A DNA stretch of 64,000 nt from Amphiscolops sp. MND2022 (lineage: Eukaryota): assembly GCA_964187785.1 (NCBI GenBank), contig OZ076409.1:75518001-75582000 (forward strand). Reading direction: 5' to 3'. Within the stretch, counting starts at the first letter, position 1; each line of letters opens with the position of its first letter. Below, piece by piece: positions 1,222 to 29,222 of this stretch. The notes under the pieces are model-generated. The model was not told the origin of the DNA and did no database searches. It saw only the letters and a list, made by a program, of their open reading frames with translations. Made by a program: the position numbers and the translations under genes.

Positions 1222-1391
1222 GCAAAAAGCCCCGAACTACGGCCCTTACCTTCCTGAGCTACGCAGTATAAAGATTGCATATTGGTTCCGACATTTTGAT
1301 AGAGTTATATCTTGGTAATCTGTCTGGGTATGCAGAAAAACCAGCACGTGCTTTTTTATACCAAGTTGCTCACAACGACATTTATTTTATA

Positions 1392-1493
1392 TCAACGCCC
1401 CCATATTTATCAACGCCCCCCGTCCGTGGGCATGCCGAGGCATGCCCTTCGACGACGTATACCAAAATATGTTCGAGCGCGTTAGCCTAGGTG
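1392..1493 (+). other. Conserved terminal module (representative copy): TCAACGCC x2, GGGCATGCC-GA-GGCATGCCC palindrome, TTCGACGACGT, variable tail, CTAG|GTG
   Basis: The palindrome lies at 1428-1447 here and is present before 44 of 48 junctions, in families A, B and C. Confidence 0.92.
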
Positions 1494-6614: not shown

Positions 6615-8580
6615 GTGCGGGGGGGAAACCCCTTCCTTTATCTTGGAGGATTCGGGTAGGGTCCTGAATCCGATTTTAGTTCGCCCAGCTCTCAGTAGAA
6701 ATCTGGGAAATTTTTTGCGATCTCGTGATCTAACCATAGGATTTTAAAGTTGGAGCGGCCCCCACCAGATTTTCCAAAGTTATTCGCCCCCCACCGGGTT
6801 CCAGCGTGATTGAAATATTTTGACGGGGTACACGGGCGACCGTTAGGGGTCATTTTGGGGGTAAAATTTATATCCGGTCGCATAACTTTTTTCCTGTTGG
6901 ATTAAAACTTTGGGACCCTGCTAAAAGTTTCTTGACCGTGTTGCGGGGGCTCCGGAGGTCCAAACCAAATTTTTCTATCTTGAAGCTATCTCCAAGTACC
7001 CCCCCGCCCAAAACGTTATTTTTCCGGAAACGCAGGTTTTTGACCCGGAAGGAGTCGTCGGAGCGCGGGGTCGTTAGGTGATGTATTGGGGACGGCCTTG
7101 AGACGAAGTGGGGGACATGCAGTTTGCCAACCCCAGTTTACCCCCCGGACGGGAAATGACCGTTATATGAGCGGGAAAAATGCCCCCCTCCACGTTTTAC
7201 CGCTATTTCCGGTGTGAAGGAGTGGGAGTAGCGCGTCGGGTGCCATATATCAAAAGTAGGTTTGAACAAGGAACTATCGGAAACATGTGGTTTGGGACCC
7301 CCTGGACCAACCCGTTAGCGGGAAATGGGGCTTCCGCCTCCTTTTTTTACTGCTAAAACAGTAAAATGGGCATTGAGGGGTAAATATCTCGTGAACGCGT
7401 GGAGCTACGGTGTCCATCACTACTACAAGGTTTCATACCCATGATATGGTGCCTTCAGGGGGGCAAACAGATTTCCGCTATCTATCACCGTTACCGACTT
7501 GGCCCCCCAGCCTAACCGCTATGTGACCGGAAATGTCACTTTTTGAGCCCAAAGGGTCGGTCCCAGCCGGGGAACGTTAGGTAAATTACTGTAGTACTCA
7601 ATGAGACGAGTTGGGGGATATAGTTTCAGTCACCCCCCGTTACCCCTTGGGACCGGAAATGACCGTTATGTGGGTAAAATTGCAATTTTTATACTTTTTC
7701 AAGTGTATTTAGGTGCGGAAGGAGTGGTAATAGGTGCTTGGACACTATATGAGGTAAGGGAGGACGTGAGGCGAGCATTCGGAAATAACCGTTATGTTGA
7801 CCCTAAAGTCCCCCTGGTACCGTAAACGACCGGAAATGGTCAAATTTTGTGTCTATTGGGTACAAATGTTTAGTATTTTGTAGATAAAAGTATCTATTAG
7901 GTGTTTCGACGGTCTGCAGTAGTGAACATAGTCATGAAACCTTGTGGGGGGTAACGGTATATAGCACCGGAAGTCCAAACCGTTGGTGACAGGATAGGTT
8001 TTTTGGTTTTAAAATGTCTTTCGGCGTACCTTTGTCGACTATTAAGGACTATTTTTAAAAATTAAAGATTTTCCATATAGTTTCAGAGACCTCGAAACCT
8101 CAACCAACATAACCGTTACCTCATGATAGCCTTTCAAGTTGGCCTGGTGTCAACTTGGAAGGGCTATCCTTCAAAAATCGTCAATCAAGTGTGTTTTTGG
8201 GTATGTTTGTATCATTTTAGAATCAATTAGAGCTTCAAGAAAAGTTTCCCAACAACAAAAACTATGTCGTGAAGATTCCGTTACTAGAATTATAGTAAGC
8301 AAATTGTTGAGAAAATTTTTTTTTCCAAATTAAATGTGTCCTAAATGCCAGGAAACCTATTTTACTAACAAATAGTATTGATTGGAATGTATGTAACAGA
8401 TTTATAAAAGTTCAAATTATTAAGTTTCATTATGGAAGCTGAAACGTAATATTTTAGTTTAATTAACGTCAACGCCACATACTTTACATCAACGCCCACC
8501 GTCTGTGGGCATGCCGAGGCATGCCCTTCGACGACGTATACCAAATACATACCTAACGACGCCCGTACATCCCGGGCTAG
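6615..8580. mobile_element. Family B unit (1966 bp), putative non-autonomous mobile cassette
   Basis: Body is not alignable by eye to family A. It starts GTGCGGGGGG, has GGGTAGGGTCC at +40 and ends in the shared palindrome module plus CTAG. It is homologous to 16274-18246, 24670-26640 and 29223-31195. The repeat is certain; mobility is inferred. Confidence 0.7.
8125..8168. other. Long imperfect hairpin of family B (representative copy)
   Basis: GATAGCCTTTCAAGTTG-gcctggtgt-CAACTTGGAAGGGCTATC, present with minor changes in all four B units. Confidence 0.8.
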
Positions 8581-11500
8581 GTGCCGGGATTTCTATTCGA
8601 TAAAGTATGTGGCGCGCCTTGGGTAGGGTCCCTTGCGCGCTCTTGGGTATGGTGTTCACCAGCTAGGAAACAGGGGTCGATTTTTCGGGATCTCCTAAAC
8701 TAGCCACACGATTTGGCTGAAATTTGGCACACGTACTCCCCTCGGCACGGTGAAGATGATTTCCTACTGACGTTTTTCCCGCAAAATTTTTTTTGTTGTC
8801 CAAAATAACGGTTTTTGGGGTAAAATTTTGAATTTTTTTTAAATTTTATCTTATATCTCGCCACGGGTTTACGCTAGCGCTTCAGAACCCTGCTAAAGAA
8901 AGCTTGCAAACTGTCTCTGGAATGCTGTGTGAAAATTTCAGCTCAATCGGACTCAAACTCGGGGAGATATAGCGTTTTTCCGGAGCGGGGGGGTTTCATT
9001 TTTCTAACGGTCCAGCTTATCTTTGCCATTTTTTCGAAAATGCACTCGCCTAAAGGCCTCCCCTGGCCGGTTTTATTCCCAGCAAAACCATTTGGCCCTA
9101 AATACGGAGTTTCAGCGTTCCAGCATTTCCGGGCGAAAAGTTGTGGGACTTAGAAATTTTCAAAAATTTTCAAAATTTTTTTTTTCGTTATTTGGGCCCC
9201 CAAAGTGGGGGAAAAGACCCCCCATCCAGTAAAGCAAGTGAATGCATGTGCAAAGCCCTTGTTTGGACGAGAAAAATGCCGTTTAGAACGTCTTTTTATC
9301 TTGGCTCAACGTTGACTTATGACGTTTTGAAGGTGATGTTTGGAGGTGTAAAGCACGTGAATAGTAAACGTTATGAGTATTTATCTGATCTGAAAGCCAT
9401 TGAGATGCAATATGGTTTGCTCAAAACGTAATTCATTGCAGTTTGGCAATCAATCAACACCCTTTTTTGTCGTTTGACATACTTTTTTGTTGTTATAATA
9501 AAAAATTTTGTGTATTTTTTCATTTTTTTCTCATCAAATAACTTGAAACAGTTGAGTACATTCCATCCCCCCCTTCCGGGGGAGATGAGAATGTACTCGC
9601 AAAAAGCACCGAACTACGGCCCTTACCTTCCCGAGCTACGCAGTATAAGGATTACATATTGGTTCCGACATTTTCATAGAGTTATATCTTGGTAATCTGT
9701 CTGGATATGCCGAAAAATCAGCACGTGCCTTTTAATACCAAGTTGCTCACGACAACAATTCTTTTATATCAACGCCCCCATATTTATCAACGCCCACCGT
9801 CCGTGGGCATGCCGAGGCATGCCCTTCGACGACGTGCACCAAGATATGCTATAACGCGTTAGCCTAGGTGCCGGTGTTTTTTTACACAATGGGGGAAGTT
9901 GCGCGGTTGGGGAGGGTCCCTGACGCGCTTCCGTGGTATCGGGTCTTTCAACCGATGAAAACGACATAAAAAATTGGGATCTCGTAAACTAGCCATACGA
10001 TTTGGCTGAAATTTGGCACACGTACCCCCCTTGGCACGGTGAAGATGATTCCCTACTGACGTTTTGCCCGCTAAACATTTTTTGTTGACCAAAATAACGG
10101 ATTTTGGGGTAAAATTTTCAACTTTTTTTAAATTTCATCTCATATCTCGCCACGGGTACACGCTAGCGCTTCCAAACCTTGCTGACGAAAGTTTGCAAAC
10201 TGTCTCAGGAATGCTGTGTGAAATTTTCAGCTCAATCGGACTTAAACTCGAGGAGATATAGCGTTTTTCCGGAGCGGGGGGGTTTCATTTTTCTAACGGT
10301 CCAGCTTATCTTTGCCATTTTTTCGAAAATGCACTCGCCTAAAGGCCTCCCCTGGCCGGTTTTATTCCCAGCAAAACCATTTGGCCCTAAATACGGAGTT
10401 TCAGCGTTCCAGCATTCCCGGGCGAAAAGTTGTGGGACTTAGAAAATTTCAAAAATTTTCAAAATTTTTTTTTCCGTTATTTGGGCCCCCAAAGTGGGGG
10501 AAAAGACCCCCCAACCAGTAAAGCAAGTGAATGCATGTGCAAAGCCCTTGTTTAGAGGAGAAAAATGCCGTTTAGAACGTCTTTTTATCTTGGCTCAACG
10601 TTGACTTATGACGTTTTGAAGGTGATGTCTGGAGGTGTAAATCACGTGAATAGTAAACGTTATGAGTATTTATCTGATCTGAAAGCCATTGAGATGCAAT
10701 ATGGTTTGCTCAAAACGTAATTCATGGCAGTTTGGCAATCAATCAACACCCTTTGTTGTCGTTTGACATACTTTTTTGTTGTTATAATAAAAAATTTTGT
10801 GTATTTGTTCATTTTTTTCTCATCAAATAACTTGAAACAGTTAAGTACATTCCATCCCCCCCTTCCGGGGGAGATGAGAATGTACTCGCAAAAAGCAGCG
10901 AATTACGGCCCTTACCTTCCCGAGCTACGCAGTATAAGGATTACATATTGGTTCCGACATTTTCATAGAGTTAAATCTTGGTAATCTGTCTGGATATGCA
11001 GAAAAATCAGCACGTGCCTTTTAACACCAAGTTGCTCACAACGACAATTATTTTATATCAACGCCCCCATATTTATCAACGCCCCCCGTCCGTGGGCATG
11101 CCGAGGCATGCCCTTCGACGACGTATACCAAGATATGCGTTAACGCGTTAGCCTAGGTGGCCGTGTCTTTTCGACGTGCTTTTGCATTGAGGAGTGGGTA
11201 GGGCCCCGCGACGACCTAGAAGAATTGGATGCTCACCGAAACGTGCAGAATTCTACGAGATCTCATAGTTTGAGCCATACGATTTTGCTGAAATTTGGCA
11301 TGTGGCCTGGAATTGGTGAGTAGGTAAAACGTGGAGGTGATTTTTCCCAAATTCCACTGTGAGACGAGATATGGGCAAATAACGGTCCCAAAAATGGCAA
11401 AAATGCACTTTTTTCAACTTTGTCAGCCCATATCTCGTTCCCAGGTGCCCGGAGCGGGACGCGTTAAGCTGATTATAAACTCTAGGGTGTTGAGGCTGTA

Positions 11501-13715
11501 CGGGGAAGTCAGGCCCGTTCCGATCGGACCTGTAGTCTTGGAGAAATAACGGTATTTTTGGGGAACCTTTTCTAACGGTCCAGCTTATCTTTGCCATTTT
11601 TTCGAAAATGTACTCGCCTAAAGGCCTCCCCCTGGCCGAATTTACTCCCAGCAAAACCATTTGGCCCTAAATACGGAGTTTCAGCGTTCCAGCATTCCCG
11701 GGCGAAAAGTTGTGGGACTTGGAAAATTTTCAAAAATTTTCAAAAATTTTTTTTTTTCGTTTTCCGGGCCCCCAATGAAGGGGAAACGACCCCCCAACCA
11801 GTATTTTGAGTGAATTCATGTGGAAAGCCCTTGTTTTGACGAGAAAAATACCGTTTAGAACATCTTTTTATCTTGACTCAACGTTGACTTATGACGTTTT
11901 GAATGTGATGTAAGGATGTAGGAGGCATGTGATAAGTTGATGTTTTGAGCCTTATCTCATATGAAAGCGGTTGAGATGCAAGCTGTCCTGCTCAAAACGT
12001 CTTTCGTTGTAATTTTGCAGTGCAACAATACCCTTTGGTGTCATATAAACATACTTTTTGTCGATATATTAACAATTTTAATGTATTTATTCCAATTTTT
12101 ATTATCTTATAACTCAAAACAGTTGAGTACATTTCATCTCCCTTTCGGGGGAGATGAGAATGTACTCGCTAAAGACCTAGCGCCATGACCAAAAGTTTGA
12201 AACCCACGTTTTTTATCTTCTTACAGACTTGTTTTTGTATTTTTTCGGAATTTTTTAAAAATTAATATACTTGAAATACATTACTTGACTTTACTACTAC
12301 AACCCACCTCCAACGACAACGCCCCCCTGCTTGCATCAACGCCCACCGTCCGTGGGCATGCCGAGGCATGCCCTTCGACGACGTATGCCAAATGCCCAGT
12401 GCCACGCAGTCATTATCGCTAGGTGCCGGTGTTTTTTTACACAAAGGGGGATGTTGCGCGTGTGGGGAGGGTCCCTGACGCGCTCCCGGGATTTCGGATT
12501 TTTTAACCTTTACGTACCCATCAAATATTTTGGGATCTCGAAAACTAGCCGTACGATTTGGCTGAAATTTGGCACACGTACCCCCCTCGGCACGGTGAAG
12601 ATGATTCCCTACTGACGTTTTGCTCGCTAAACATTTTTTGTTGACCAAAATAACGGTTTTTGGGGTAAAATTTTCAATTTTTTTTAAATTTCATCTTATA
12701 TCTCGCCACGGGTACACGCTAGCGCTTCCAAACCTTGCTGACGAAACCTTGCAAACTGTCTCAGGAATGCTGTGTGAAATTTTCAGCTCAATCGGACTTA
12801 AACTCGGGGAGATATAGCGTTTTTCCGGAGCGGGGGGGTTTCATTTTTCTAACGGTCCAGCTTATCTTTGCCATTTTTTCGAAAATGCACTCGCCTAAAG
12901 GCCTCCCCTGGCCGGTTTTATTCCCAGCGAAACCATTTGGCCCTGAATACGGAGTTTCAGCGTTCTAGCATTTTCGGGCGAAAAGTTGTGGGACTTAGAA
13001 AATTTCAAAAATTTTCAAAAAAAAATTTTTCCGTTATTTGGGCCCCCAATGTGGGGGAAAGGACCCCCCAACCAGTATTTTGAGTGAATGCATGTGCAAA
13101 GCGCTTGTTTAGAGGAGAAAAATGTCGTTTAGAACGTCTTTTTATCTTTACTCAACGTTGACTTATGACGTTTTGAAAGTGATGTAAAGAGGTGTGAAGC
13201 ACGTGAAAAGTAAACGTTATGAGTATTTATTTGATCTGAAAGCCATTCAGATGCAATCTGATTTGCCCAAAACGTAATTCATTTCAGTTTGGCAGTCAAT
13301 CAACACCCTTTGTTGTCGTTTGACATATTTTTTTGTTGATATAATAAAAAATTTTGTGTATTTATTTATTTTTTTCTCATCAAATAACTTGAAACAGTTG
13401 AGTACATTCCATCTCCCTTCCCGGGGGAGATGAGAATGTACTCGCAAAAAGCCCCGAACTATGGCCCTTACCTTCCCGAGCTACGCAGTATAAAGATTGC
13501 ATATTGGTTTCGACATTTTGATAGAGTTATATCTTGGTAATCTGTCTGGATATGCAGAAAAATCAGCACGTGCCTTTTTATACCAAGTTGCTCACAACGA
13601 CAATTATTTTATATCAACGCCCCCATATTTATCAACGCCCCCCGTCCGTGGGCATGCCGAGGCATGCCCTTCGACGACGTGCACCAAGATATACCCCGAA
13701 CGCGGTAGCGGCTAG
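8581..13715. repeat. Family A units 7-10
   Basis: Units 8581-9867, 9868-11156, 11157-12422 and 12423-13715 carry the family A blocks. Confidence 0.95.
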
Positions 13716-16273
13716 GTGCCCAAATCCATCGATTTACCTTCATTTTGAGGGCGGGGTAGGGCCCACGCCCGGTTCAACAGGCTTTAGACTGACAACGTTA
13801 AGCCATTTCGCAAAATGGAAGCGATTTTCTAAACGAGCCGTCAGATTTTGCTGAAATTTTGCATGCGGCTTCCTCTAGCAATTCTAAGAACTAATCCCTA
13901 CTGGCGTTTTGCCCGGAAAATTTTTTTTGTTGACTTATAGACAATTTTAGGTCCAAAAAATGGCGTTTTTTTGGAAAAATTTTTTTTAAGAGCCTATATC
14001 TCGCTCCCAGGTGCCCGTAGCGACCAGACCTCGGACGGTACTATTGCTGGGCACTTCGTAAGGAGCCCGTAGACAAATTTTCGTACAGATCGGATAAAAA
14101 TTGATAGAGTAATAGCCGCCGATTTGGCGAATTTTTTCGACATTTTTCGAAATCCCAGTCTATCTCTGCCGTTTTTTGCCCAGATTTTTTTCCAGGACCT
14201 CTCCTAAAGACCTCCCCTGGCCGGTTTACCTCCCAAAAAAACCATTTGGCCCTTTTGCCGCAGTTTCAGCGTTCCAGGATTCCCCGGGTAAAAGTAAAAT
14301 GTCTTAGAATTTTTTCGAAAAATTTTCAAAAATTTTTTTTTCAACTTCAGGCCTCCCAAAGTCAAGAAACGTCCACACAACTAGTATTGCAAGTGGATGC
14401 ATGTGGAAAGTGCTCGAATAGACGAGAAAAATGAGCTATTATAAACCTCTGTAGCTCAACCTGACGTTGACTTATGACAATTTTAATGTGAGCTTGCTAT
14501 GTGAGAAAAAATTTCAAAAATTGAAAATTGAAGCTAAGTCTCATCCAAAACTCATCCGAATACGTTCAATCCATCCCAAAGCGGTTTATTTCCAGCTATA
14601 GAGTGCAGCAACACCGTTCAAGGTCATTTGACCCATTTTAATAGGTTTTGACTCTGTCTTATCCATCCGAAAGTTCGAAACAGTTAAGTACATTCCATCT
14701 CCCCTCCGTGGGAGATGGTAATGTACTCGCAAAAAGCCAAGTATTACCACCCTATTCTATCCGTAGTGGTGCTAGAAATGCAGTAGCGGGAGCGCCAGGC
14801 TGTTTACAGTAGCTTTTATGGGTGTTGTGACTATGTATTACAAATCTAACTATGTTACTGAACGTGAAAAAGTTGTTTCAATCCAGTTTTTTCCCACATT
14901 TTTTTATGTCATCAATAAAGATATATCCATGCATTTACTACTACCTACCCCATCACCCGCCCCCTCCACTATCTGTTCAACCGTGCACGTCTAGGTGCCA
15001 AGCTTTGACCAGCAACCCAACTCTTTGAGGGCGGGGTAGGGCCCCCAGCCCGAACATAAGGCTTTAGACTTTCAACGTAAGGCCGATGGTACTACCTAAT
15101 AGCGATTTCGAAAACGGCCCGTCAGATTTTGCTCAAATTTTGCATACGGCTTCCTATACCAATCCTAAGAACTATTTCCTACTGGCGTTTTGCCCAAAAA
15201 AATTTTTTTGTGGGTCAAAATCTTAGTTTTTTGGTCAAAAAATGGCATTTTTTTGGAAAAAAATTTTTTAAGAGTCAATATCTCGTCCCACAGGCCCCGG
15301 ATCAAAAAGTGTACAATTGTTCGTTTGTTAGGCACTTCATGAACTGTCCGTAGACAAATTTTCGTCCAGATCGGAATAAAATTGACTGAGTAATAAAAAA
15401 CTTTGAAAGTGATTTTGACGTCATTTTTCGAAAACCTAGTCTATCTCTGCCGTTTTTTGCCCAGATTTTTTTCCAGGACCTCTCCTAAAGGCCTCCCCTG
15501 GCCGGTTTACCTCCCAGAAAAACCATTTGGCCCTTTTGCCGCAGTTTCAGCGTTCCAGGATTCCTTGAGTAAAGTAAAATGACTTAGAATTTTTTCGAAA
15601 AATTTTCAATAAAAAATTTTTTTTTCTTCAGGCCTCCCAAAGTCAAGAATTGTCCACACAACTAGTATTGCAAGTGGATGCATGTGGAAAGTGCTCGAAT
15701 AGACGAGAAAAATGAGCTATTATAAACCTCTGTAGCTTAATCTGACGTTGACTTATGACAATTTTAGTGTGAGCTTGCTATGTGAGAAAAAATTTCAAAA
15801 ATTGAAAATGGGAACTAAGTCTCATCCAAAACTCATCCGAATACGTTCAATCCATCCCAAATCGGTTTATTTTCAGCTGTTCAGTGCAGCAACACCATTA
15901 AAGGTCATTTAACCCACATTTATAAGTTTTGACACCGTCTTATCCATCCGAAAGTTCGAAACAGTTAAGTACATTCCATCTCCCCTCCGTGGGAGATGGT
16001 AATGTACTCGCAAAAAGCCAAGTACTATCGCCCCATTCTACCCGTAGTGGTGCTAGAAATGCAGTAGCGGGAGCGCCAGGCTGTTTAAAGTAGCCTTTAC
16101 GGGTGTTGTGACTGTATAACAAATCTAACTATGTTACTGAACGTGAAAAAGTTGTTTCAATCCAGTTTTTTCCCACATTTTTTTATGTCATCAATAAAGA
16201 TATATCCATGCATTTACTACTACCTACCCCATCACCCGCCCCCTCCACTATCTGTTCAACCGTACACGTCTAG
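13716..16273. repeat. Two family A variant units (1279 bp each) with an alternative terminus lacking the GGGCATGCC palindrome
   Basis: Units 13716-14994 and 14995-16273 keep the internal A blocks but end CCTACCCCATCACCCGCCCCCTCCACTATCTGTTCAACCGT(G/A)CACGTCTAG. Confidence 0.93.
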
Positions 16274-18246
16274 GTGCGGGGGGGTAACCCCTACAAAGAT
16301 ATTGGAGGATTCGGGTAGGGTCCTGAATCCGAGTTCAGTGCTGCCAGCTATCGTTAGGGATTTTAGAAAATTTTGCCGATCTCGTGATCTAACCGTAGGA
16401 TTTTAAAGTTGGAGCGGCCCCCACCTGATTTTCCAAAGTTATTCGCCCCCCACCGGGTTCCAGCGTGATTGAAATATTTTGACGGGGTACACGGGCGACC
16501 GTTAGGGGTCATTTTGGGGGTAAAATTTATATCCGGTCGCATAACTTTTTTCCTGTTGGTTTAAAACTTTGAGACCCTGCTAAAAGTTTCTTGACCGTGT
16601 TGCAGTGGCTCCGGAGGTCCAAACCAAATTTTTCTATCTTGAAGCTATCTCCAAGTACCCCCCCGCCCAAACCGTTATTTTTCCGGAAACGCAGGTTTTT
16701 GACCCGGAAGGAGTCGTCTGAGCGCGGGGTCGTTAGGTGATGTATTGGGGACGGCCTTGAGACGAAGCGGGGGACATGTAGTTTGCCGACCCCTGTTTAC
16801 CCCCCGGACGGGAAATGACCGTTATTTGAGCGGGAAAAATGCCCCCCTCCACGTTTTACCGCTATTTCCGGTGTGAAGGAGTGGGAGTAGCGCGTCGGGT
16901 GTTATATAACAAAAGTAGGTTTAGACAAGGACCTATCGGAAACATGTAGTTTGAGACCCCCTGGACCAACCCGTTAGCGGGAAATGGGGCTTCCGCCTCC
17001 TTTTTTTACTGCTAAAACCGTAAAATGGGCATTGAGGGGTAAATATCTCGTGAACGCGTGGAGCTACAGTGTCCATCACTACTACAAGGTTTCACACCCA
17101 TGATATGGTGCCTTCAGGGGGGCAAACAGATTTCCGCTATCTATCACCGTTACCGACTTGCCCCCCCAGCCTAACCGCTATGTGACCGGAAATGTCACTT
17201 TTTGAGCCCAAAGGGTCGGTCCCAGCCGGGGAACGTTAGGTAACTTATTGTAGTGCTAATTGAGACGAGTTGGGGGATATAGTTTCAGTCACCCCCCGTT
17301 ACCCCTTAGGACCGGAAATGACCGTTATGTGGGTAAAATTGCAATTTTTATACTTTTTCAAGTGTATTTAGGTGCGGAAGGAGTGGTAATAGGTGCTTGG
17401 ACACTATATGAAGGAAGGGAGGACGTGAGGCGAGCATTCGAAAATAACCGTTATGTTGACCCCGAAGTCCCCCTGGTACCGGAAGTGACCCGTAATGGTC
17501 AAATTTCGTGTTTTTAGGGTACAAATATTTGGTGTTTTATGGATAACAGTGCCTATTAGGTGTTTCGACGGTCTGCAGTCGTGAACATAGTTATGAAACC
17601 TTGTGGGGGGTAACGGTATATAGCACCGGAAGTCCAAACCGTTGGAGACAGGATAAGTTTTTTGGTTTTAAATGTCTTTCGGCCTACTTTTGTCGACTAT
17701 TATGGACTATTTTTGGAAAATAAAGTTTTTCCATATAGTTTCAGAGACTCCGAAACCTCAACCAACATAACCGTTACCTTATGATAGCCTTTCAAGTTGG
17801 CCTGGTGTCAACTTGGAAGGGCTATCCTTCAAAAATCATTAATCCAGTGTGTTTTTGAGTATGCTTGTTTTACTTTAGAATCAATTAGAGCTTCAAGAAA
17901 AGATTGCCAACGACAAAAACTATGTCGTGATGATTCCGTTATTAGAATAATAGTTACCAAAATGTTGATAAAGTTGATTTTTTACATTTCAAATATGTCC
18001 TAAATGCCAAAAAACCTATTTACCAAACAAATGGAATTGATTGAATTGTATATAGAAGCTAATAAAAGTTCAAATTGAATATTACATTTCATTATGCAAG
18101 CTGAAACGTCAAATTATAGTTTAATTAACGTCAACGCCACGTACTTTACATCAACGCCCACCGTCCGTAGGCATGCCGAGGCATGCCTTTCGACGACGTA
18201 TACCAAATTCCACCCACACAACACCCTCGAGCGCGGTAGCCGCTAG
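16274..18246. mobile_element. Family B unit (1973 bp)
   Basis: Homologous to 6615-8580. Its last bases (CGAGCGCGGTAGCCGCTAG) are of the family A type. Confidence 0.7.
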
Positions 18247-20832
18247 GTGCCGGGATTTCTATTCGATAAAGTATGTGGCGCGTGTGGGTAGGGTCCCTGG
18301 CGCGCTCTTGGGTATGGTGTTCACCAGCTAGGAAATAGGGGTCGATTTTTCGGGATCTCGTAAACTAGCCGTACGATTTGGCTGAAATTTGGCACACGTA
18401 CCCCCCTCGGCACGGTGAAGATGATTCCCTACTGACGTTTTGCTCGCTAAACATTTTTTGTTGACCAAAATAACGGTTTTTGGGGTAAAATTTTCAACTT
18501 TTTTTAAATTTCATCTTATATCTCGCCACGGGTACACGCTAGCGCTTTCAAACCTTGCCGACGAAAGTTTGCAAACTGTCTCAGGAATGCTGTGTGAAAT
18601 TTTCAGCTCAATCGGACTAAAACACGAGGAGATATAGCGTTTTTCCGGAGCGGGGGGGGGGGTTTAATTTTTCTAACGGTCCAGCTTATCTTTGCCATTT
18701 TTCCGAAAATGTAATCGCCTAAAGGCCTCCCCTGGCCGGTTTTATTCCCAGCAAAACCATTTGGCCCTAAATACGGAGTTTCAGCGTTCCAGCATTCCCG
18801 GGCGAAAAGTTGTGGGACTTAGAAAATTTCAAAAATTTTCAAAATTTTTTTTTTCCGTTATTTGGGCCCCCAAAGTGGGGGAAAAGACCCCCCAACCAGT
18901 AAAGCAAGTGAATGCATGTGCAAAGCCCTTGTTTGGACGAGAAAAATGCCGTTTAGAACGTCTTTTTATCTTGGCTCAACGTTGACTTATGACGTTTTGA
19001 AGGTGATGTTTGGAGGTGTAAAGCACGTGAATAGTAAACGTTATGAGTATTTATCTGATCTGAAAGCCATTGAGATGCAATATGGTTTGCTCAAAACGTA
19101 ATTCATGGCAGTTTGGCAATCAATCAACACCCTTTGTTGTCGTTTGACATACTTTTTTGTTGTTATAAAAAAAAATTTTGTGTATTTATTCATTTTTTTC
19201 TCATCAAATAATTTGAAACAGTTGAGTACATTCCATCCCCCCCTTCCGGGGGAGATGAGAATGTACTCGCAAAAAGCACCGAACTACGGCCCTTACCTTC
19301 CCGAGCTACGCAGTATAAGGATTACATATTGGTTCCGACATTTTCATAGAGTTATTTCTTGGTAATCTGTCTGGATATGCCGAAAAATCAGCACGTGCCT
19401 TTTAATACCAAGTTGCTCACAACGACAATTATTTTATATCAACGCCCCCATATTTATCAACGCCCCCCGTCCGTGGGCATGCCGAGGCATGCCCTTCGAC
19501 GACGTATACCAAGATATGCGTTAGCGCGGTAGCTGCTAGGTGCCGGTGTTTTTTTACACAAAGGGGGATGTTGCGCGTGTGGGGAGGGTCCCTGACGCGC
19601 TCCCGGGATTTCGGATTTTTTAACCTTTACGTACCCATCAAAAATTTTGGGATCTCGAAAACTAGCCGTACGATTTGGCTGAAATTTGGCACACGTACCC
19701 CCCTCGGCACGGTGAAGATGATTCCCTACTGACGTTTTGCTCGCTAAACATTTTTTGTTGACCAAAATAACGGTTTTTGGGGTAAAATTTTCAATTTTTT
19801 TTAAATTTCATCTTATATCTCGCCACGGGTACACGCTAGCGCTTCCAAACCTTGCTGACGAAACCTTGCAAACTGTCTCAGGAATGCTGTGTGAAATTTT
19901 CAGCTCAATCGGACTTAAACTCGGGGAGATATAGCGTTTTTCCGGAGCGGGGGGGTTTCATTTTTCTAACGGTCCAGCTTATCTTTGCCATTTTTTCGAA
20001 AATGCACTCGCCTAAAGGCCTCCCCTGGCCGGTTTTATTCCCAGCGAAACCATTTGGCCCTAAATACGGAGTTTCAGCGTTCTAGCATTTTCGGGCGAAA
20101 AGTTGTGGGACTTAGAAAATTTCAAAAATTTTCAAAAAAAATTTTTTCCGTTATTTGGGCCCCCAATGTGGGGGAAAGGACCCCCCAACCAGTATTTTGA
20201 GTGAATGCATGTGCAAAGCGCTTGTTTAGAGGAGAAAAATGTCGTTTAGAACGTCTTTTTATCTTTACTCAACGTTGACTTATGACGTTTTGAAAGTGAT
20301 GTAAAGAGGTGTGAAGCACGTGAAAAGTAAACGTTATGAGTATTTATTTGATCTGAAAGCCATTCAGATGCAATCTGATTTGCCCAAAACGTAATTCATT
20401 TCAGTTTGGCAGTCAATCAACACCCTTTGTTGTCGTTTGACATATTTTTTTGTTGATATAATAAAAAATTTTGTGTATTTATTTATTTTTTTCTCATCAA
20501 ATAACTTGAAACAGTTGAGTACATTCCATCTCCCTTCCCGGGGGAGATGAGAATGTACTCGCAAAAAGCCCCGAACTATGGCCCTTACCTTCTCGAGCTA
20601 CGCAGTATAAAGATTGCATATTGGTTTCGACATTTTGATAGAGTTATATCTTGGTAATCTGTCTGGATATGCAGAAAAATCAGCACGTGCCTTTTTATAC
20701 CAAGTTGCTCACAACGACAATTATTTTATATCAACGCCCCCATATTTATCAACGCCCCCCGTCCGTGGGCATGCCGAGGCATGCCCTTCGACGACGTGCA
20801 CCAAGATATACCCCGAACGCGGTAGCGGCTAG
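18247..20832. repeat. Family A units 14-15
   Basis: The body of 18247-19539 matches 4053-5345 but has a different head. Unit 19540-20832 is near-identical to 12423-13715. Confidence 0.95.
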
Positions 20833-22111
20833 GTGCCAAGCTTTGACCAGCAACCCAACTCTTTGAGGGCGGGGTAGGGCCCCCAGCCCGAACATAAGGC
20901 TTTAGACTTTCAACGTAAGGCCGATGGTACTACCTAATAGCGATTTCGAAAACGGCCCGTCAGATTTTGCTCAAATTTTGCATACGGCTTCCTATACCAA
21001 TCCTAAGAACTATTTCCTACTGGCGTTTTGCCCAAAAAAATTTTTTTGTGGGTCAAAATCTTAGTTTTTTGGTCAAAAAATGGCATTTTTTTGGAAAAAA
21101 ATTTTTTAAGAGTCAATATCTCGTCCCACAGGCCCCGGATCAAAAAGTGTACAATTGTTCGTTTGTTAGGCACTTCATGAACTGTCCGTAGACAAATTTT
21201 CGTCCAGATCGGAATAAAATTGACTGAGTAATAAAAAACTTTGAAAGTGATTTTGACGACATTTTTCGAAAACCTAGTCTATCTCTGCCGTTTTTTGCCC
21301 AGATTTTTTTCCAGGACCTCTCCTAAAGGCCTCCCCTGGCCGGTTTACCTCCCAGAAAAACCATTTGGCCCTTTTGCCGCAGTTTCAGCGTTCCAGGATT
21401 CCTTGAGTAAAGTAAAATGACTTAGAATTTTTTCGAAAAATTTTCAATAAAAAATTTTTTTTTCTTCAGGCCTCCCAAAGTCAAGAATTGTCCACACAAC
21501 TAGTATTGCAAGTGGATGCATGTGGAAAGTGCTCGAATAGACGAGAAAAATGAGCTATTATAAACCTCTGTAGCTTAATCTGACGTTGACTTATGACAAT
21601 TTTAGTGTGAGCTTGCTATGTGAGAAAAAATTTCAAAAATTGAAAATGGGAACTAAGTCTCATCCAAAACTCATCCGAATACGTTCAATCCATCCCAAAT
21701 CGGTTTATTTCCAGCTGCTCAGTGCAGCAACACCATTAAAGGTCATTTAACCCACATTTATAAGTTTTGACACCGTCTTATCCATCCGAAAGTTCGAAAC
21801 AGTTAAGTACATTCCATCTCCCCTCCGTGGGAGATGGTAATGTACTCGCAAAAAGCCAAGTACTATCGCCCCATTCTACCCGTAGTGGTGCTAGAAATGC
21901 AGTAGCGGGAGCGCCAGGCTGTTTAAAGTAGCCTTTACGGGTGTTGTGACTGTATAACAAATCTAACTATGTTACTGAACGTGAAAAAGTTGTTTCAATC
22001 CAGTTTTTTCCCACATTTTTTTATGTCATCAATAAAGATATATCCATGCATTTACTACTACCTACCCCATCACCCGCCCCCTCCACTATCTGTTCAACCG
22101 TACACGTCTAG
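20833..22111. repeat. Family A variant unit with alternative terminus
   Basis: Near-identical to 14995-16273 and the same length (1279 bp). Confidence 0.93.
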
Positions 22112-24669
22112 GTGGCCGTGTCTTTTCGACGTGCTTTTGCATCGAGGAGTGGGTAGGGCCCCGCGACGACCTAGAAGAATTGGATGCTCACCGAAACGTG
22201 CAGAATTCTACGAGATCTCATAGTTTGAGCCATACGATTTTTCTGAAATTTGGCATGTGGCCTGGAATTGGTGAGTAGGTAAAACGTGTAGGAGGTAATT
22301 TTTCCCAAATTCCATTGTGAGAGGAGATATGGGCAAATAACGGACCCAAAAATGGGGAAAATGCACTTTTTTCAAGTTTGTCAGCCAAAATCTCATTTCC
22401 AGGTGCCCGTAGCGTCCCGCACGTGGACGTCAATATTGCTCAGCGCTGTTAGAGGAGTGCGTGGACAAATTTTGGTTGAAATCGGACGAAAACGTGAGGA
22501 GAAATTAACGGTTTTCCGGGTGTTTCCGGGTTAAAATTTTTAACGGTCCAGCTTATCTTTGCCATTTTTTCGAAAATGTACTTGCCTAAAGGCCTCCCCC
22601 TGGCCGAATTTCCTCCCAGCAAACCCATTTGGCCCTAAATACGGAGTTTCAGCGTTCCAGCATTTCCGGGCGAAAAGTTGTGGGACTTAGAAAAATTTCA
22701 AAATTTTTCAAAAAATTTTTTTTCGTTTTCCGGGCCCCCAATGAAGGGGAACGACCCCCCAACCAGTATTTTGAGTGATTGCATATCGAAAGCCCTTGTT
22801 TTGACGAGAAAAATACCGTTTCGAACATCTTTTTATTTTAACTTGGCGTTGACTTATGACGTTTTGAATGTGATGTTAGGATGTGTGAGGCATGTGAAAA
22901 GTTGATGTTTTGAGTATTTATCTCATGTGAAAGCGATTGAGATACAAGCTGTTTCGCTCAAAACGGGTTTCATCGTAATTTCGCAGTGCATCATTGACCT
23001 TTGTTGTCTTTTGAAGAATTTTTTCTTCATATAACAACAATTTTGGTGTGTTTCTTCCAATTTTTCTCATCTTCTAATTTGAAACAGTTGAGTACATTTC
23101 ATCTCCCTTTCGGGGGAGATGAGAATGTACTCGCTAAAAACCTAGTGCTTTTGCGCCGCAATGTTTGCAAAAGTTGTTATTATTGCTGTTCCATCAGCAT
23201 TTTCTAACTGACTTTTTTAAAACTATCAATTAACTTGAAGTACATTACTTGAACTTACTACTAATACCATACATCTCTAACGACAACGCACCCTGCTTGC
23301 ATCAACGCCCACCGTCCGTGGGCATGCCGAGGCATGCCCTTCGACGACGTATGCCAAATACCAAATGCCACGCTGTCATTATCGCTAGGTGGCCGTGTCT
23401 TTTCGACGTGCTTTTGCATCGAGGAGTGGGTAGGGCCCCGCGACGACCTAGAAGAATTGGATGCTCACCGAAACGTGCAGAATTCTACGAGATCTCATAG
23501 TTTGAGCCATACGATTTTTCTGAAATTTGGCATGTGGCCTGGAATTGGTGAGTAGGTAAAACGTGTAGAAGGTAATTTTTCCCAAATTCCACTGTGAGAG
23601 GAGATATGGGCAAATAACGGACCCAAAAATGGCAAAAGTGCACATTTTTCAACTTTGTCAGCCAATATCTCATTTCCAGGTGCCCGTAGCGTTCCGCACG
23701 TGGACATCAATATTGCTCAGCGCTGTTGGAGGAGTGGGTGGACAAATTTTGGTTGAAATCGGACTTAAACTTGACGAGAAATTAACGGTTTTTTGGGCGT
23801 TTCCGGGGTAAATTTTTTAACGGTCCAGCTTATCTTTGCCATTTTTTCGAAAATGTACATGCCTAAAGGCCTCCCCCTGGCCGAATTTACTCCCAGCAAA
23901 CCCATTTGGCCCTAAATACGGAGTTTCAGCGTTCCAGCATTCCGGGGCGGAAAGTTGTGGGACTTGGAAAAATTTCAAATTTTTTTCAAAATTTTTTTTC
24001 CCGTTTTCCGGGCCCCCAATGAAGGGGAACGACCCCCCAACCAGTATTTTGAGTGAATTCATGTGGAACGCCCATGTTTGGAGGAGAAAAATGCCGTTTA
24101 GAACATCTTTTTATCTTAACTTGACATTGACTTATGACGTTTTGAATGTGATGTTAGGATATATGAAGCATGTTAAAAGTTGAAGTTTTGAGTCTTTATC
24201 TCATCGGAAAACCATTGAGATACAAGCAGTTTTGCTAAAAACGATTTTCATTGTAGGTTAGCAGAGTATTAGTACACTTTGATGTCATTTGAGTATTTTT
24301 TTCTTCTATATAATAACTGTTTTTATGTATTTATTCCAATTTATCTCATCTTTTAACATCAAGCAGTTGAGTACATTTCATCTCCCTTTCGGGGGAGATG
24401 AGAATGTACTCGCTAAAAAACTAATGCTTTGGCGCCAATGTTTGGATGGGAAGTTTTCTATGTTTTGAAAAAAGTTATTTTTAATTACTTGATTTTTTAA
24501 AACAATAATTAACATGAAGTACATTACTTGCTCCTACTACTACCACCATACATCTCTAACGTCAACGCCCCCTGCTTGCATCAACGCCCCATCGTCCGTG
24601 GGCATGCCGAGGCATGCCCTTCGACGACGTATGCCAAATGCCCAGTGCCACACAGTCTTTCCCCGCTAG
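22112..24669. repeat. Family A units 17-18 (GTGGCCGTGTC-head subtype)
   Basis: Units 22112-23388 and 23389-24669 share a head but have diverged 3' halves. Confidence 0.94.
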
Positions 24670-26640
24670 GTGCGGGGGGGTAACCCCAACAAAAATTTTG
24701 GAGGATTCGGGTAGGGTCCTGAATCCGATTTTGACTCTAATAGCTATCGATAGGAAATCTTGCAAAAATTTCGGGATCTCGTGATCTAACCATAGGATTT
24801 TAAAGTTGGAGCGGCCCCCACCAGATTTTCCGAAAATTAGCGCCCCCCACCGGGTTCCATACCCCGGAAAATTTTTTTCTGGCCACACGGGCGACCGTTA
24901 GGGGGTCATTTTAGGGGTAAAATTCATATTGGGCCACATAACTTTTTTTCTGTTGATTTAAAACTTTGGAACCCTGCTAAAAGTTTCTTGACCGTATTGC
25001 AAGGGCTCCGGAGGTCCAAACCAAATTTTTCTATCTTGAAGCTATCTCCAAGTACCCCCCCGCTCAAACCGTTATTTTTCCGGAAACGCAGGTTTTTAAC
25101 CCGGAAGGAGTCTTCAGAGCGCGGGGTCGTTAGGTGATGTTTTGGGGACGGCCTTGAGACGAAGTGGGGGACATGTAGTTTGCCAACCTCAGTTTACCCC
25201 CCGGACGGGAAATGACCGTTATATGAGCGGGAAAAATGCCCCCCTCCACGTTTTACCGCTATTTCCGGTGTGAAGGAGTGGGAGTAGCGCGTCGGGTGCC
25301 ATATATCAAAAGTAGGTTTAGACAAGGATCTATCGGAAACATGTGGTTTGAGACCCCCTGGACCAACCCGTAAGCAGGAAATGGGGCTTCCGGCCCGTTT
25401 TTTTACGGTTAAAAACGGAAAATGGGCATTGAGGGGTAAATATCTCGTGAACGCGTGGAGCAATCGTGTCCTTCACTACTACAAGGTTTCATACCCGTGA
25501 TATGGTGCCTTCAGGGGGGCAAACATATTTCCGCTATCTATCACCGTTACCGACTTGGCCCCCCAGCCTAACCGCTAAGTGACCGGAAATGTCATATTTT
25601 GAGCCCTAAGGGTCGGTCAGAGCGTGGCATCGTTAGGTAACTTATTGTAGTAGTCAATGGGACGAGTTGGGGGATATAGTTTCAGTCACCCCCCGTTACT
25701 CCTTGGGACCGGAAATGACCGTTATGTGAGTAAAATTGCGATTTTTGTACTTTTTGAAGGGCAATTAGGTGCGGAAGGAGTGGTAATAGGTGCTTGGACA
25801 CTATATGATGGAAGGGAGGACGTGAGGCGAGCGTTCGGAAATAACCGTTATGTTGACCCCAAAGTCCCCCTGGTACCGTAAACGACCGGAAATGGTCAAA
25901 TTTTGTGTTTATAGGGTACAAATGTTTGATATTTTGTAGATAAAAGTATCTATTAGGTGTTTCGACGGCCTGCGGTAGTGAACATAGTCATGGAACCTTG
26001 TGGGGGGTAACGGTATATAGCACCGGAAGTCCAAACCGTTGGAGACAGGATAGGTTTTTTGGTTTTAAAATGTCTTTCGGCGTACTTTTGTTGACTATTA
26101 TGGACTATTTTTAAAAATTAAAGTTTTTCCATATAGTTTCAGAGACTCCGAAACCTCAACCAACATAACCGTTACCTTATGATAGCCTTTCAAGTTGGCC
26201 TGGTGTCAACTTGGAGGGGCTATCCTTCAAAAATCGTTAACCAAGTGTGTTTTTGGGTATGTTTGTATCGTTTTAGAATCAATTAGAGCTTCAAGAAAAG
26301 TTTGCCAACGACAAAAACTATGTCGTGATGATTCCGTTATTGGAATGATGGTTAACAAAATGTTGATAAAGTTGATTTTTTACATTTCAAATGCGTCCTA
26401 AAAGCCAGAAAACTTCTTTACCAAACAAATGGTATTGATTGAATTGTATATAACAGGTAATAAAAGTTCAAATTGATTATTACGTTTCATTATTCAAGCT
26501 AAAAATTCATAACATAGTTTTATTAACGTCAACGCCACATACTTTACATCAACGCCCACCGTCTGTGGGCATGCCGGGGCATGCCCTTCGACGACGTATA
26601 CCAAATACATACCTAACGACGCCCGTACATCCCGGGCTAG
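24670..26640. mobile_element. Family B unit (1971 bp)
   Basis: Homologous to 6615-8580. The palindrome loop is GG instead of GA. Confidence 0.7.
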
Positions 26641-29222
26641 GTGCCGGGATTTCTATTCGATAAAGTATGTGGCGCGTGTGGGTAGGGTCCCTGGCGCGCT
26701 CTTGGGTATGGTGTTCACCAGCTAGGAAATAGGGGTCGATTTTTCGGGATCTCGTAAACTAGCCACACGATTTGGCTGAAATTTGGCACACGTACTCCCC
26801 TCGGCACGGTGAAGATGATTTCCTACTGACGTTTTTCCCGCAAAATTTTTTTTGTTGTCCAAAATAACGGTTTTTGGGGTAAAATTTTGAATTTTTTTTA
26901 AATTTTATCTTATATCTCGCCACCGGTTTAGGCTAGCGCTTCAAAACCTTGCTAAAGAAAGCTTGCAAACTGTCTCAGGAATGCGGTGTGAAATTTTCAG
27001 CTCAATCGGACTTAAACTCGGGGAGATATAGCGTTTTTCCGGAGCGGGGGGGTTTCATTTTTCTAACGGTCCAGCTTATCTTAGCCATTTTTTCGAAAAT
27101 GTACTCGCCTAAAGACCTCCCCTGGCCGGTTTTATTCCCAGCAAAACCATTTGGCCCTAAATACGGAGTTTCAGCGTTCCAGCATTCCCGGGCGAAAAGT
27201 TGTGGGACTTAGAAAAATTCAAAAATTTTCAAAAAAAAATTTTTCCGTTTTCCGCCCTCCCCCCCTAGGGGAAAAGACCCCCCAACCAGTAATTTGAGTG
27301 AATTCATGTGGAAAGGCCATGTTTAGACGAAAAAATTGCCGTTTAGAACGTCTTTATATCTCAACCTGACATTGACTTATGAAGCTTTAAAGGTGATGTT
27401 TGGACGTGTGAAGCATGTAAAAAAAGGAATTTTTTTGATTTTATTTCATCAGAAAGTCATTGAATTACACGCTGTGAAGCCCAGAGCGTGGTTTCTAATA
27501 GTTTGGTATCGTTTAAACGCATTTTGGTGTCTTTTTACTCTGTTTAAAAAACTTTTCTCCTGAAAATTAATAAATTTTGATTACTTTTCTTACTTTCCAT
27601 TAATTTTTTTTTCTTATATTTTTACTTGAAACAGTTGAGTACATTCCATCTCCCTTCCCGGGGGAGATGAGAATGTACTCGCAAAAAGCCGCGAACTACG
27701 GCCCATACCTTCCCGAGATACGCAGTATAAAGATAACATAATGGTCCAGACATTTTAATGGAGTTGTATCTTGGTAATATGTCTGGATTTGCAGAAAAAT
27801 CAGCACGTGCCATTTTATACCAAGTTGCTCGCAACGACAATTAATTTAAATCAACGCCCCCCACAAAAATCAACGCCCCCCGTCCGTGGGCATGCCGAGG
27901 CATGCCCTTCGACGACGTGCACCAAAATATGCCCCGAGCGCGTTAGCAGCTAGGTGCCGGGATTACTATTCGATAAGGAATTTTGCGCGTTTGGGTAGGG
28001 CCCCGTGAGCGCGCCAGGGGATAGTGTTAGAACAACAAGGATTTGGGCATCAGTTGGGAGCGATTTTCTAAACTATCCGTACGATTTTGCTGAAATTTGG
28101 CACGAAGCTTCCTTGGAACATTCTAAGAACAAATCCCTACTGGCGTTTTGCTGGGAAAAATCAAAAAGTTGGTCAAAAATGCGATTTTCCGACAAAATTT
28201 TGGGGTAAAATTTTTTTGAAACGTTATATCTCGCCACAGGGTCACGCTAGCGCCTCGCAACCTATGATCGTGTTTTGTTGGGCGTTGTCTGTAGAACACG
28301 TATGCCAAATTTGGTGGCGATCGGACTTAAACTCAGGGAGATATAGCGATTTTTTAGGTGCATTTTTCGACATTTTTTGCGTTTGCCGATTTATCTCTGC
28401 CGTTTTTGCCCAAATTTTTTTTGAGACACTCTCCTAAAGACCTCCCCTGGCCGGTTTACCTCCCAGAAAAACCATTTGGCCCTAAATACGAAGTTTCAGC
28501 GTTCTAGCATTCCCGGGCAAAAAGTTGTGGGACTTAGAATAGTTTTTATGGTAACGCAAAATGTGTAAAGTCAACTTCAGGCCTCCCAAAGTCAAAGAAC
28601 TTCCACACAACTAGGATTGCAAGTGGGTGCATGTGGAAAGTACTCGGATAGACGAGAAAAATGAGCTATAGAACGACTCTGTAGCTTAACCTGACGTTGA
28701 CTTATGACAATTTTAGTGTGAGCTTGCTATTTGGTGTAAAAATTCAAATGATGAAAATCGAAGCTAAGTCTCATCCAAAACTCATCGGAATACGTTCAAT
28801 GCATCCCAAAGCGGATTAATTCGAGATGTTTAGTGCAGCAACACCATTCAAGACCATTTGACCCATTTTTATAAGTTTTGACAACGTATTATTCATACGA
28901 GAGCACGAAACAGTTGAGTACATTCCATCTCCCTTTCGGGGGAGATGAGAATGTACTCGCTAAAGTCCAGGTACTACAGCCCATATTTGCTTTTATGCGA
29001 CGCTCTTATGCTAGTGCGCATACTTTTTAATCGTTTAACTGAATTTTCTTCTGTCTGCACTTTGACTTTGACTTGACATATAGTGAACGTTTTGTCTTAC
29101 AACTTACAAATGAGTAACGTCAACGCCCCATCCTTGCATCAACGCCCACCGTCCGTGGGCATGCCGAGGCATGCCCTTCGACGACGTATGCCAAGATATA
29201 TCCCAAGCGCGGTAGCCGCTAG
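26641..29222. repeat. Family A units 20-21
   Basis: Units 26641-27953 (1313 bp) and 27954-29222 (1269 bp) carry the family A blocks. Confidence 0.94.

What the first reader, a model, noticed from the sequence alone, without database searches (positions are those of the whole stretch)
12423..22111. Precise presence/absence of one whole unit with the breakpoint confined to CTAGGTGCC
Seen: order X(12423-13715), Y(13716-14994), Z(14995-16273) versus X'(19540-20832), Z'(20833-22111), where X and X' and also Z and Z' are near-identical and equal in length. X' keeps the X tail up to CTAG, and Z' has the Z head (GTGCCAAGCTTTG) rather than the Y head (GTGCCCAAATCC). A homologous crossover inside X/Y or Y/Z would have produced a hybrid unit, so the only shared sequence at the breakpoint is the 9-bp core. 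Inference: site-specific insertion or excision of Y, or independent assembly of whole units. Either way the join is at the core.
Basis: partly seen in the sequence, partly recalled or inferred. Interest (0 to 1): 0.78.

Follow-up and report, generated by a model that had tools for sequence, protein, structure and literature searches.

The report
Junction-stacked array of mobile DNA units
The whole window is a chain of 47 non-coding 1-2 kb units from four internally unrelated families, joined head to tail in random order at one 7-letter word (CTAGGTG), which likely means an unidentified enzyme inserts whole units one at a time at existing joins, a cassette-like behaviour we did not find described at this scale.

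Summary
Observation confirmed: X/X' differ at 4 of 1293 bases, Z/Z' at 3 of 1279, and the Y-present and Y-absent versions share only CTAG|GTGCC at the break. It is one case of a window-wide rule. There are 48 joins on one strand (47 CTAG|GTG, 1 CTGG|GTG); the invariant core is 7 bp, not 9. They bound 47 units of four families that share little but their ends. A unit's head predicts its own tail, but a tail does not predict the next head, and order is random, with no duplicated dimers beyond chance. That argues against ordinary satellite turnover. Units carry a covarying 5' stem-loop, usually a 3' hairpin, and a CTRR end; there is no ORF, poly(A), 5' truncation or terminal inverted repeat. One low-depth public run shows other tail-head pairings at the same core. 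Best reading: non-autonomous, Helitron-like rolling-circle elements inserted at existing joins (enzyme not seen). Rivals: Dada-like target-duplication stacking, or a tyrosine recombinase. Whether Y was gained or lost is unresolved; host and enzyme are unknown.

The parts
203..63104 (+). Array of 47 complete head-to-tail units (partial units at both window ends); the finding is one stretch of it
12419..12425 (+). Core CTAG|GTG at the left end of X; upstream neighbour differs from that of X'
12423..13715 (+). Unit X (1.28-kb family), 99.7% identical to X'
12456..12483 (+). 5' stem-loop of X: conserved GG(G/T)AGGG motif with lineage-specific, covarying outer arms
13400..13443 (+). Long bulged hairpin (19-bp stem) about 270-315 nt before the 3' end of X
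   Evidence: z -7.0
13650..13669 (+). 3' hairpin of X ending 46 nt before the unit end; also fits two p53-type half sites (consensus recalled)
13712..13720 (+). X|Y join, CTAG|GTGCC
13716..14994 (+). Unit Y, present here and absent between X' and Z'; 88% identical to Z; lacks the 3' hairpin
14991..14999 (+). Y|Z join, CTAG|GTGCC
14995..16273 (+). Unit Z, 99.8% identical to Z'; lacks the 3' hairpin
16274..18246 (+). 1.97-kb unit of a second family; interior unrelated to X, shares 5' stem-loop motif and 3' end region; own long bulged hairpin at 17783-17826
18247..19539 (+). 1.29-kb unit of the main family between the two blocks
19540..20832 (+). Unit X'
20829..20837 (+). X'|Z' join (the Y-less version), CTAG|GTGCC
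20833..22111 (+). Unit Z'; followed at the core 22108-22114 by a different unit than Z is
42704..44105 (+). 1.40-kb unit of a third family
44106..45151 (+). 1.05-kb unit of a fourth family, ending in CTGG (variant join CTGG|GTG at 45148-45154), no 3' hairpin of the common type

Best explanation
The units are likely non-autonomous mobile elements that an enzyme encoded elsewhere, most likely a Helitron-like HUH rolling-circle nuclease, copies out and inserts as whole units at an existing CTAG|GTG join, which would rebuild a join on both sides and grow a randomly ordered array. Shown: unit boundaries, one orientation, four families sharing ends, random order, independence across the join, conserved hairpins. 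Inferred: the enzyme nicks one strand at CTAG^GTG, peels the unit off, closes it at the next CTAG^ into a circle whose junction is again CTAG|GTG, and exchanges strands with an array join. On this reading X and Z most likely moved or were duplicated together as a core-to-core block (read-through), and Y was added at the X|Z join afterwards; loss of Y, or separate arrival of X' and Z', is not excluded. Homologous exchange between units reshuffles their interiors without changing neighbours.
For: Tail and next head are independent, own head and tail are linked. Of 31 junction pairs with near-identical 40-nt tails, 1 also shares the next head (background 61 of 1128); of 26 such pairs 11 share their own head. 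No dimer duplication beyond chance at 4 of 4 thresholds; adjacent identity 0.712 vs 0.709 permuted (46 units). Of 59 tracts of at least 500 bp and 97% identity, 13 starts and 14 ends lie within 15 bp of a join (2.3% of positions) and 3 cross one by more than 30 bp on each side (tracts overlap, so they are not independent). The 1.97-, 1.40- and 1.05-kb families share with the main family mainly terminal motifs. All 48 joins end in CTRR (47 CTAG, 1 CTGG), the Helitron 3' signature (PMC5148889, passages). The 5' stem-loop folds better with its own arms than with swapped arms: -8.0 vs -5.5 kcal/mol over 12 lineages, p 2.5e-4, which points to single-strand or cruciform recognition. The long bulged hairpin recurs with unrelated sequence in the main and 1.97-kb families. 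The Helitron enzyme makes circles with a precise tail-head junction, reads through its terminator (PMC4778049, passages) and cleaves such junctions (PMC5876387, passages). In coded run X1 one contig of the 1.97-kb family stops aligning exactly at the C of CTAG (16270) with 23 further letters unaligned, and one contig joins a different tail to a head at the core (12411 to 18240).
Against: No enzyme gene: longest ORF 166 aa, 0 of 28 ORFs tested match Pfam, and no genome is held. The 5' end is GTG, not the Helitron TC; the 3' hairpin ends 42-58 nt from the end rather than about 11; Helitrons insert at AT with no reported junction preference in the passages read. Y, Z, Z' and the 1.05-kb unit lack the 3' hairpin yet sit at exact joins. 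The true cut could lie anywhere in the 7-bp core, because no solo insertion was seen. The circular linkage pattern over all short units (first vs last block rho 0.78, first vs middle 0.18-0.52) was not reproduced inside the main family of 23 units, where linkage decays with linear distance, so circles are not shown. A Mantel test across the join gave a weak positive (rho 0.16, p 0.036). Most near-identical tract ends are internal (46 of 59 starts, 45 of 59 ends). The X1 evidence is 2 contigs at depth 2-6 and X1 may be the same species or sample.
Confidence: 0.45

Rival explanations
1. Target-duplication stacking by a sequence-specific DDE transposon of the Dada type: CTAGGTG (or part of it) is a 6-7 bp target site duplication, and repeated insertion of several non-autonomous families at one site leaves one copy between neighbours.
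For: Dada elements lack terminal inverted repeats, make 6-7 bp duplications and occur as tandems of two families separated by the duplication (PMC3706591, passages). Double insertion at one site is a documented source of tandems (PMC5932611, passages). It predicts random order and one orientation, as seen.
Against: No shared subterminal inverted repeat mirrored about the core: best 9-mer match 6-7 in 29 of 32 distinct head-tail pairs, null mean about 6.4. No tRNA or snRNA target remnant in the window; the array ends are outside it. Reported Dada tandems in the passages read are pairs. It does not explain the covarying hairpins.
Confidence: 0.2
2. A tyrosine recombinase (Crypton-, DIRS- or integron-like) excises units as circles and integrates them at a 7-bp overlap CTAGGTG, which allows precise gain and precise loss of Y.
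For: Cryptons have 4-6 bp terminal direct repeats and a proposed circular intermediate (PMC3212892, passages). The core length fits the 6-8 bp spacer named there. Random cassette order is as in integrons (recalled). At the X|Y join a 5-bp pairing between the tail and the core is predicted.
Against: No 11-13 bp inverted arms: conservation collapses within about 5 nt of the core on the tail side. No unit-specific or neighbour-specific head-tail pairing (p 0.15-0.70). The tail-core pairing is absent in the predicted folds of the Y|Z and X'|Z' joins. No recombinase gene seen.
Confidence: 0.2
3. An ordinary long-monomer satellite reshuffled by unequal crossover and gene conversion; Y was lost by microhomology-mediated repair at the 9 shared bases.
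For: Units are internal mosaics: segment clusterings disagree and linkage decays inside units. AA/TT periodicity near 10 bp suits satellite chromatin. One precise deletion can arise from 9-bp microhomology (established knowledge).
Against: It predicts preserved joins, neighbour similarity and higher-order repeats; none is seen. It does not explain four internally unrelated families sharing ends. Y and Z share hundreds of bases at 91-99%, a far better substrate than 9 bp.
Confidence: 0.08
4. Assembly or library artefact (mis-joined repeats or ligated fragments).
For: No long reads were available; the window's source is unknown.
Against: All 48 cores lie on one strand; 128 other CTAG sites on that strand are not joins; contigs of a public run show the same kind of join.
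Confidence: 0.03
5. Target-primed retrotransposition at a fixed site (R1/R2 or HeT-A style), with the p53-like tail site as promoter for the next unit.
For: R1 forms head-to-tail tandems at one site (PMC5932611, passages); head-to-tail mixed arrays are known for telomeric elements (recalled).
Against: No poly(A) or simple-repeat tail. No 5' truncation: the head motif lies 39-48 nt from the cut in 47 of 48 heads, and the other has a small deletion of the motif itself.
Confidence: 0.04

Closest known systems
Non-autonomous Helitrons (Helitron1; Helitron2/Helentron HINEs) and their tandem arrays
   Same: CTRR 3' end, subterminal hairpins (at both ends in Helitron2), no terminal inverted repeats, unrelated interiors between shared ends, head-to-tail joins, read-through (PMC4778049, PMC5876387, PMC5148889, passages).
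   Different: 5' GTG instead of TC; hairpin 42-58 nt from the end; no AT or TT target at the join; the array mixes four families in random order, whereas rolling-circle arrays are described as repeats of one element, often truncated (PMC12628747, passages; Xiong et al. 2016 seen only through that review).
Dada target-specific DNA transposons
   Same: 6-7 bp invariant word between neighbours, no terminal inverted repeats, tandems of different families at one site (PMC3706591, passages).
   Different: No mirrored subterminal inverted repeat, no small-RNA gene target seen, at least 47 units rather than pairs, conserved covarying hairpins.
Cryptons and other tyrosine-recombinase elements; bacterial integrons and CTX-type elements stacking at dif (the last two recalled)
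   Same: Short direct repeat at both ends, whole-unit gain and loss at a core, site rebuilt after each insertion.
   Different: No inverted arms at the core, no genes in the units, no recombinase seen; animal Cryptons were reported without terminal repeats (PMC3212892, passages).
Replitrons
   Same: HUH elements with short terminal direct repeats and a right-end hairpin (PMC10288648, passages).
   Different: Replitron-1 insertions have fuzzy right ends, variable duplications and an RG target; joins here are exact. No tandem arrays in the passages read.
Transposon-derived tandem repeats in centromeres
   Same: Same-strand tandem structures built from mobile elements (10.64898/2026.09.17.752431, section 9).
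   Different: Those are explained by host recombination copying intact elements, sub-sequences or mosaics; here neighbours are uncoupled and joins are exact.

Membership tests
Helitron (Helitron1) | 3' end CTRR | tested here: met
   47 CTAG and 1 CTGG of 48 joins, if the cut is after the fourth base
Helitron (Helitron1) | 5' end TC, insertion between A and T | tested here: not met
   48 of 48 heads begin GTG
Helitron (Helitron1) | Hairpin about 10-12 nt before the 3' end | tested here: inconclusive
   The conserved hairpin ends 42-58 nt upstream and is missing in 4 of 47 units; small variable hairpins nearer the end are predicted in some tails
Helitron (any) | Autonomous partner with RepHel sharing the ends | not testable with these tools
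   No genome held; no such ORF in the window
Helitron2/Helentron | Hairpin at both termini | tested here: met
   5' stem-loop motif in 47 of 48 heads, 3' hairpin in 44 of 48 tails
Helitron2/Helentron | Asymmetric subterminal inverted repeats; insertion at TT or T(T/C) | tested here: not met
   No shared head-tail inverted repeat above null; no TT at the join
Dada | 6-7 bp target duplication, no terminal inverted repeats | tested here: inconclusive
   A 7-bp word sits between all neighbours and no terminal inverted repeat is seen, but without an empty site it cannot be called a duplication
Dada | Short subterminal inverted repeats at equal distance from the duplication | tested here: not met
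Dada | Target in a tRNA or snRNA gene; DDE transposase | not testable with these tools
   Array ends lie outside the window; 0 tRNA, 0 Rfam matches at gathering score
Crypton / tyrosine-recombinase cassette | Short direct repeat at both ends | tested here: met
   Every unit lies between two cores
Crypton / tyrosine-recombinase cassette | 11-13 bp inverted arms around a 6-8 bp spacer | tested here: not met
   Junction columns
Crypton / tyrosine-recombinase cassette | Tyrosine recombinase gene; circular intermediate | not testable with these tools
   No gene in the window; no go-back joint in the one run laid, which held contigs only
Satellite DNA under concerted evolution | Neighbour similarity or higher-order repeats | tested here: not met
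Site-specific non-LTR retrotransposon array | Poly(A) or simple-repeat tail and 5' truncations | tested here: not met
Kinetoplast minicircles | Universal minicircle 12-mer (recalled) | tested here: not met
   7 matches with 2 mismatches vs 5.3 expected; none closer

The most novel reading that the evidence does not exclude
A eukaryotic cassette system: an undescribed HUH nuclease or recombinase that uses its own tail-head junction as its only target, so several families of non-coding hairpin-bearing units are captured, excised and reshuffled in one array like integron cassettes, building a satellite-sized domain without unequal crossover.
Probability: 0.25. Interest if true: 0.88.

Novelty: new variant of a known kind. 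Interest (0 to 1): 0.68.

Why it matters
If right, a long tandem array can be built by an enzyme that inserts whole 1-2 kb units at a 7-bp join in one orientation, not by host recombination. That is a separate route from mobile element to satellite, and it points to a site-specific, scar-free integrase that is probably eukaryotic. The ends are defined well enough to find the enzyme gene once the genome is in hand. The X-Y-Z and X'-Z' pair gives a natural filled and empty site for a direct test.

Tried and rejected
No genome is held for the window. Relatives: no match for the tail hairpin in metagenome or viral contigs or for an internal block in viral contigs. Looser patterns gave 12 metagenome, 4 prokaryote-genome and 4 viral loci; 0 of 20 resemble the window by blastn and none holds more than one core. 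No match in plasmids or phages. Rfam: 0 at gathering score over the window, 5 weak matches far below it in 11157-19539. No tRNA. Pfam: 0 of 28 ORFs, chosen from 51 stop-to-stop frames in two regions plus the longest ORF. Hammerhead core pattern: 14 plus 3 raw matches, not followed up. Kinetoplast minicircle idea rejected. Circular linkage as proof of circles rejected: not reproduced within the main family, and edge-limited gene conversion would mimic it. Unit-specific head-tail pairing and mirrored subterminal repeats not found. Sequencing runs: one listed, share 0.12, no RNA holder listed; Y and the X|Y, Y|Z and X|Z joins had no cover in it, which says nothing either way. Earlier scan notes: none for this genome or sequence; eight word matches from other genomes were not used. 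Literature: ten searches listed no paper whose title or opening described a multi-family, randomly ordered array joined at one core; the library lacks most subscription papers and Repbase reports, and no supplements were read. The Hydractinia subtelomeric repeat (PMC11934779, part 1 of 6) and Xenopus Helitron arrays (PMC12001565, passages) are different in unit size and make-up; the Paramecium 'Mosaic' satellite has random order but 44-nt units (PMC13085455, passages).
Full report
Observation. X and X' differ at 4 of 1293 positions, Z and Z' at 3 of 1279, Y and Z at 173. Comparing the Y-present and Y-absent versions, identity extends 4 bases left and 5 bases right of the cut, so the break is confined to CTAG|GTGCC. 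The outer ends of the X..Z block also stop at cores, with 5 and 3 shared bases. X/X' and Z/Z' are the two closest of the 1081 unit pairs (99.7 and 99.8%); that two twin pairs lie collinear within two steps has a chance of 0.07 under random order. A shared event is therefore likely but not certain.

The array. Cutting at CTAG|GTG gives 46 units, all on the + strand. A 48th join, CTGG|GTG at 45148-45154, splits the longest unit into a 1046-bp and a 1275-bp unit, giving 47. The invariant core is 7 bp; the 9-mer holds at 31 of 48 joins. CTAGGT occurs 47 times on the + strand, always at a join, while 128 other CTAG sites are not joins. There are four families: about 1.27-1.31 kb (41 units, in several subfamilies), 1.97 kb (4), 1.40 kb (1) and 1.05 kb (1). 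Their interiors are largely unrelated and they share mainly end motifs. There is no ORF above 166 aa, no Pfam match in 28 ORFs tested, no tRNA and no Rfam match at gathering score. CpG is not depleted (observed/expected 1.03) and AA/TT pairs recur about every 10 bp. A eukaryotic, probably animal, host is my inference from the repeat style and from the lack of prokaryotic or viral matches; it is not shown.

The join uncouples neighbours. Tail class is independent of the next head class (mutual information 0.372 vs 0.370 permuted) but tied to the unit's own head (1.20 vs 0.38, p 1e-4). Of 31 junction pairs with near-identical tails, 1 shares the next head, against a background of 61 in 1128; of 26 such pairs 11 share their own head. 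An internal anchor used as control kept linkage across it: 148 of 239 against 294 of 861, and 19 of 155 against 51 of 861. Order is random: adjacent identity 0.712 vs 0.709, and no excess of duplicated dimers at four thresholds. Against this, a Mantel test across the join was weakly positive (0.16, p 0.036). Of 59 near-identical tracts, 13 starts and 14 ends fall within 15 bp of a join and 3 cross one by more than 30 bp. Most tract ends are internal, and segment clusterings disagree, so units also exchange interiors by homology. Such exchange does not carry neighbours along, which unequal crossover inside the array would do.

End anatomy. Each head has GTG, then a stem-loop whose GG(G/T)AGGG motif begins 39-48 nt from the cut in 47 of 48 heads. 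Its outer arms differ between lineages but pair with their own partners: -8.0 vs -5.5 kcal/mol for swapped arms over 12 lineages, p 2.5e-4, on either strand. The alignment-based fold found only the inner 4 pairs because the outer stem shifts register. A second hairpin ends 42-58 nt before the 3' end in 44 of 48 tails, with one double change that keeps the stem. It also fits two p53-type half sites (consensus recalled, untested). Y, Z, Z' and the 1.05-kb unit lack it. A long bulged hairpin lies 270-460 nt before the 3' end in three families, with unrelated sequence in the main and 1.97-kb families (z -7.0, -5.4, -7.9). No terminal or mirrored subterminal inverted repeat was found.

Outside evidence. 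One public run held 0.12 of the sampled words. Laid on 11157-19539, 20 contigs aligned. One, 91% alike to the 1.97-kb unit, stops at 16270, the first base of the core, with 23 letters left unaligned. Another joins a tail to a head that it does not precede in the window. These are two low-depth contigs, and the run may be the same species or sample. They argue against an artefact and for other pairings at the same core, no more. Y and its joins had no cover. No relative was found in metagenome, viral, prokaryote, plasmid or phage collections.

Mechanism. Whole-unit insertion at the core by an enzyme supplied in trans is well supported (about 0.85 summed over the three enzyme types). I favour an HUH rolling-circle nuclease (0.45): the CTRR end, hairpins kept by structure rather than sequence, exact ends without inverted repeats, and a two-unit block bounded by cores all fit. 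The Helitron enzyme makes circles with a precise tail-head junction and reads through its terminator (PMC4778049, passages), and cleaves such junctions (PMC5876387, passages), so an array join is a plausible substrate. That it would also be the target is my inference and is not reported in those passages. Circles are not shown: the circular linkage seen over all short units vanished within the main family. A Dada-type DDE element leaving a 7-bp duplication (0.2; PMC3706591, passages) and a tyrosine recombinase with a 7-bp overlap (0.2; PMC3212892, passages) explain the order equally well, but each lacks its expected inverted motif here. For Y, copy-and-paste favours insertion into X|Z; Y sitting beside its closest relative (chance 0.085) leans slightly to loss from an older X-Y-Z. 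The direction is open.

Comparison and novelty. It works like stacked site-specific elements (integron cassettes and CTX-type elements, recalled; R1 and Dada tandems, PMC5932611 and PMC3706591, passages). It is not a member of Helitron1, Helitron2, Dada or Crypton by the features testable here: each fails at least one. Ten literature searches found no listing that describes a multi-family, randomly ordered array of this size joined at one core; the library omits most subscription papers and Repbase, and no supplements were read, so an existing annotation cannot be ruled out. I rate it a new variant of a known kind, interest 0.68. The bolder reading, a self-targeting eukaryotic cassette system, has probability about 0.25.

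Noticed in passing
window 44106-45154: A 1046-bp unit of its own family ends in CTGG and is followed by a normal head; the only variant core among 48.
   Followed up: yes
window 13650-13669 and 43 other tails: The tail hairpin also reads as two adjacent p53-type half sites (consensus recalled), about 45 nt before the next unit's first base; it could be a promoter element instead of, or besides, a hairpin.
   Followed up: partly
window 13400-13443, 17783-17826, 43775-43817: Long bulged hairpins of like geometry in three families, with unrelated sequence in two; one copy has a compensatory double change. Function unexplained (strand-conversion origin or small-RNA precursor are guesses).
   Followed up: partly
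window 14945-14970 and 13747-13762: Y and Z lack the tail hairpin but carry a near inverted copy of their own head motif at about the mirrored distance from the core (8 of 9 match; 3-8% of random windows do as well).
   Followed up: partly
window 13445-13610 and equivalents: A 150-170 nt segment between the long hairpin and the tail is the most divergent part between subfamilies while its length is kept.
   Followed up: no
window 35008-35907 and 63101-64000: Another twin pair, 99.8% alike over 900 bp, starting exactly at the core with different upstream neighbours.
   Followed up: partly
whole window: AA/TT autocorrelation peaks near 10, 20, 31 and 40 bp, suggesting bent DNA; CpG not depleted.
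   Followed up: no
window 51563-51620: One head has lost the conserved loop motif by a small deletion but keeps the outer stem.
   Followed up: no
L001-L016: Single hairpin-plus-core pattern matches in GC-rich bacterial contigs (Acidobacteriota among the named ones); unrelated to the window.
   Followed up: yes
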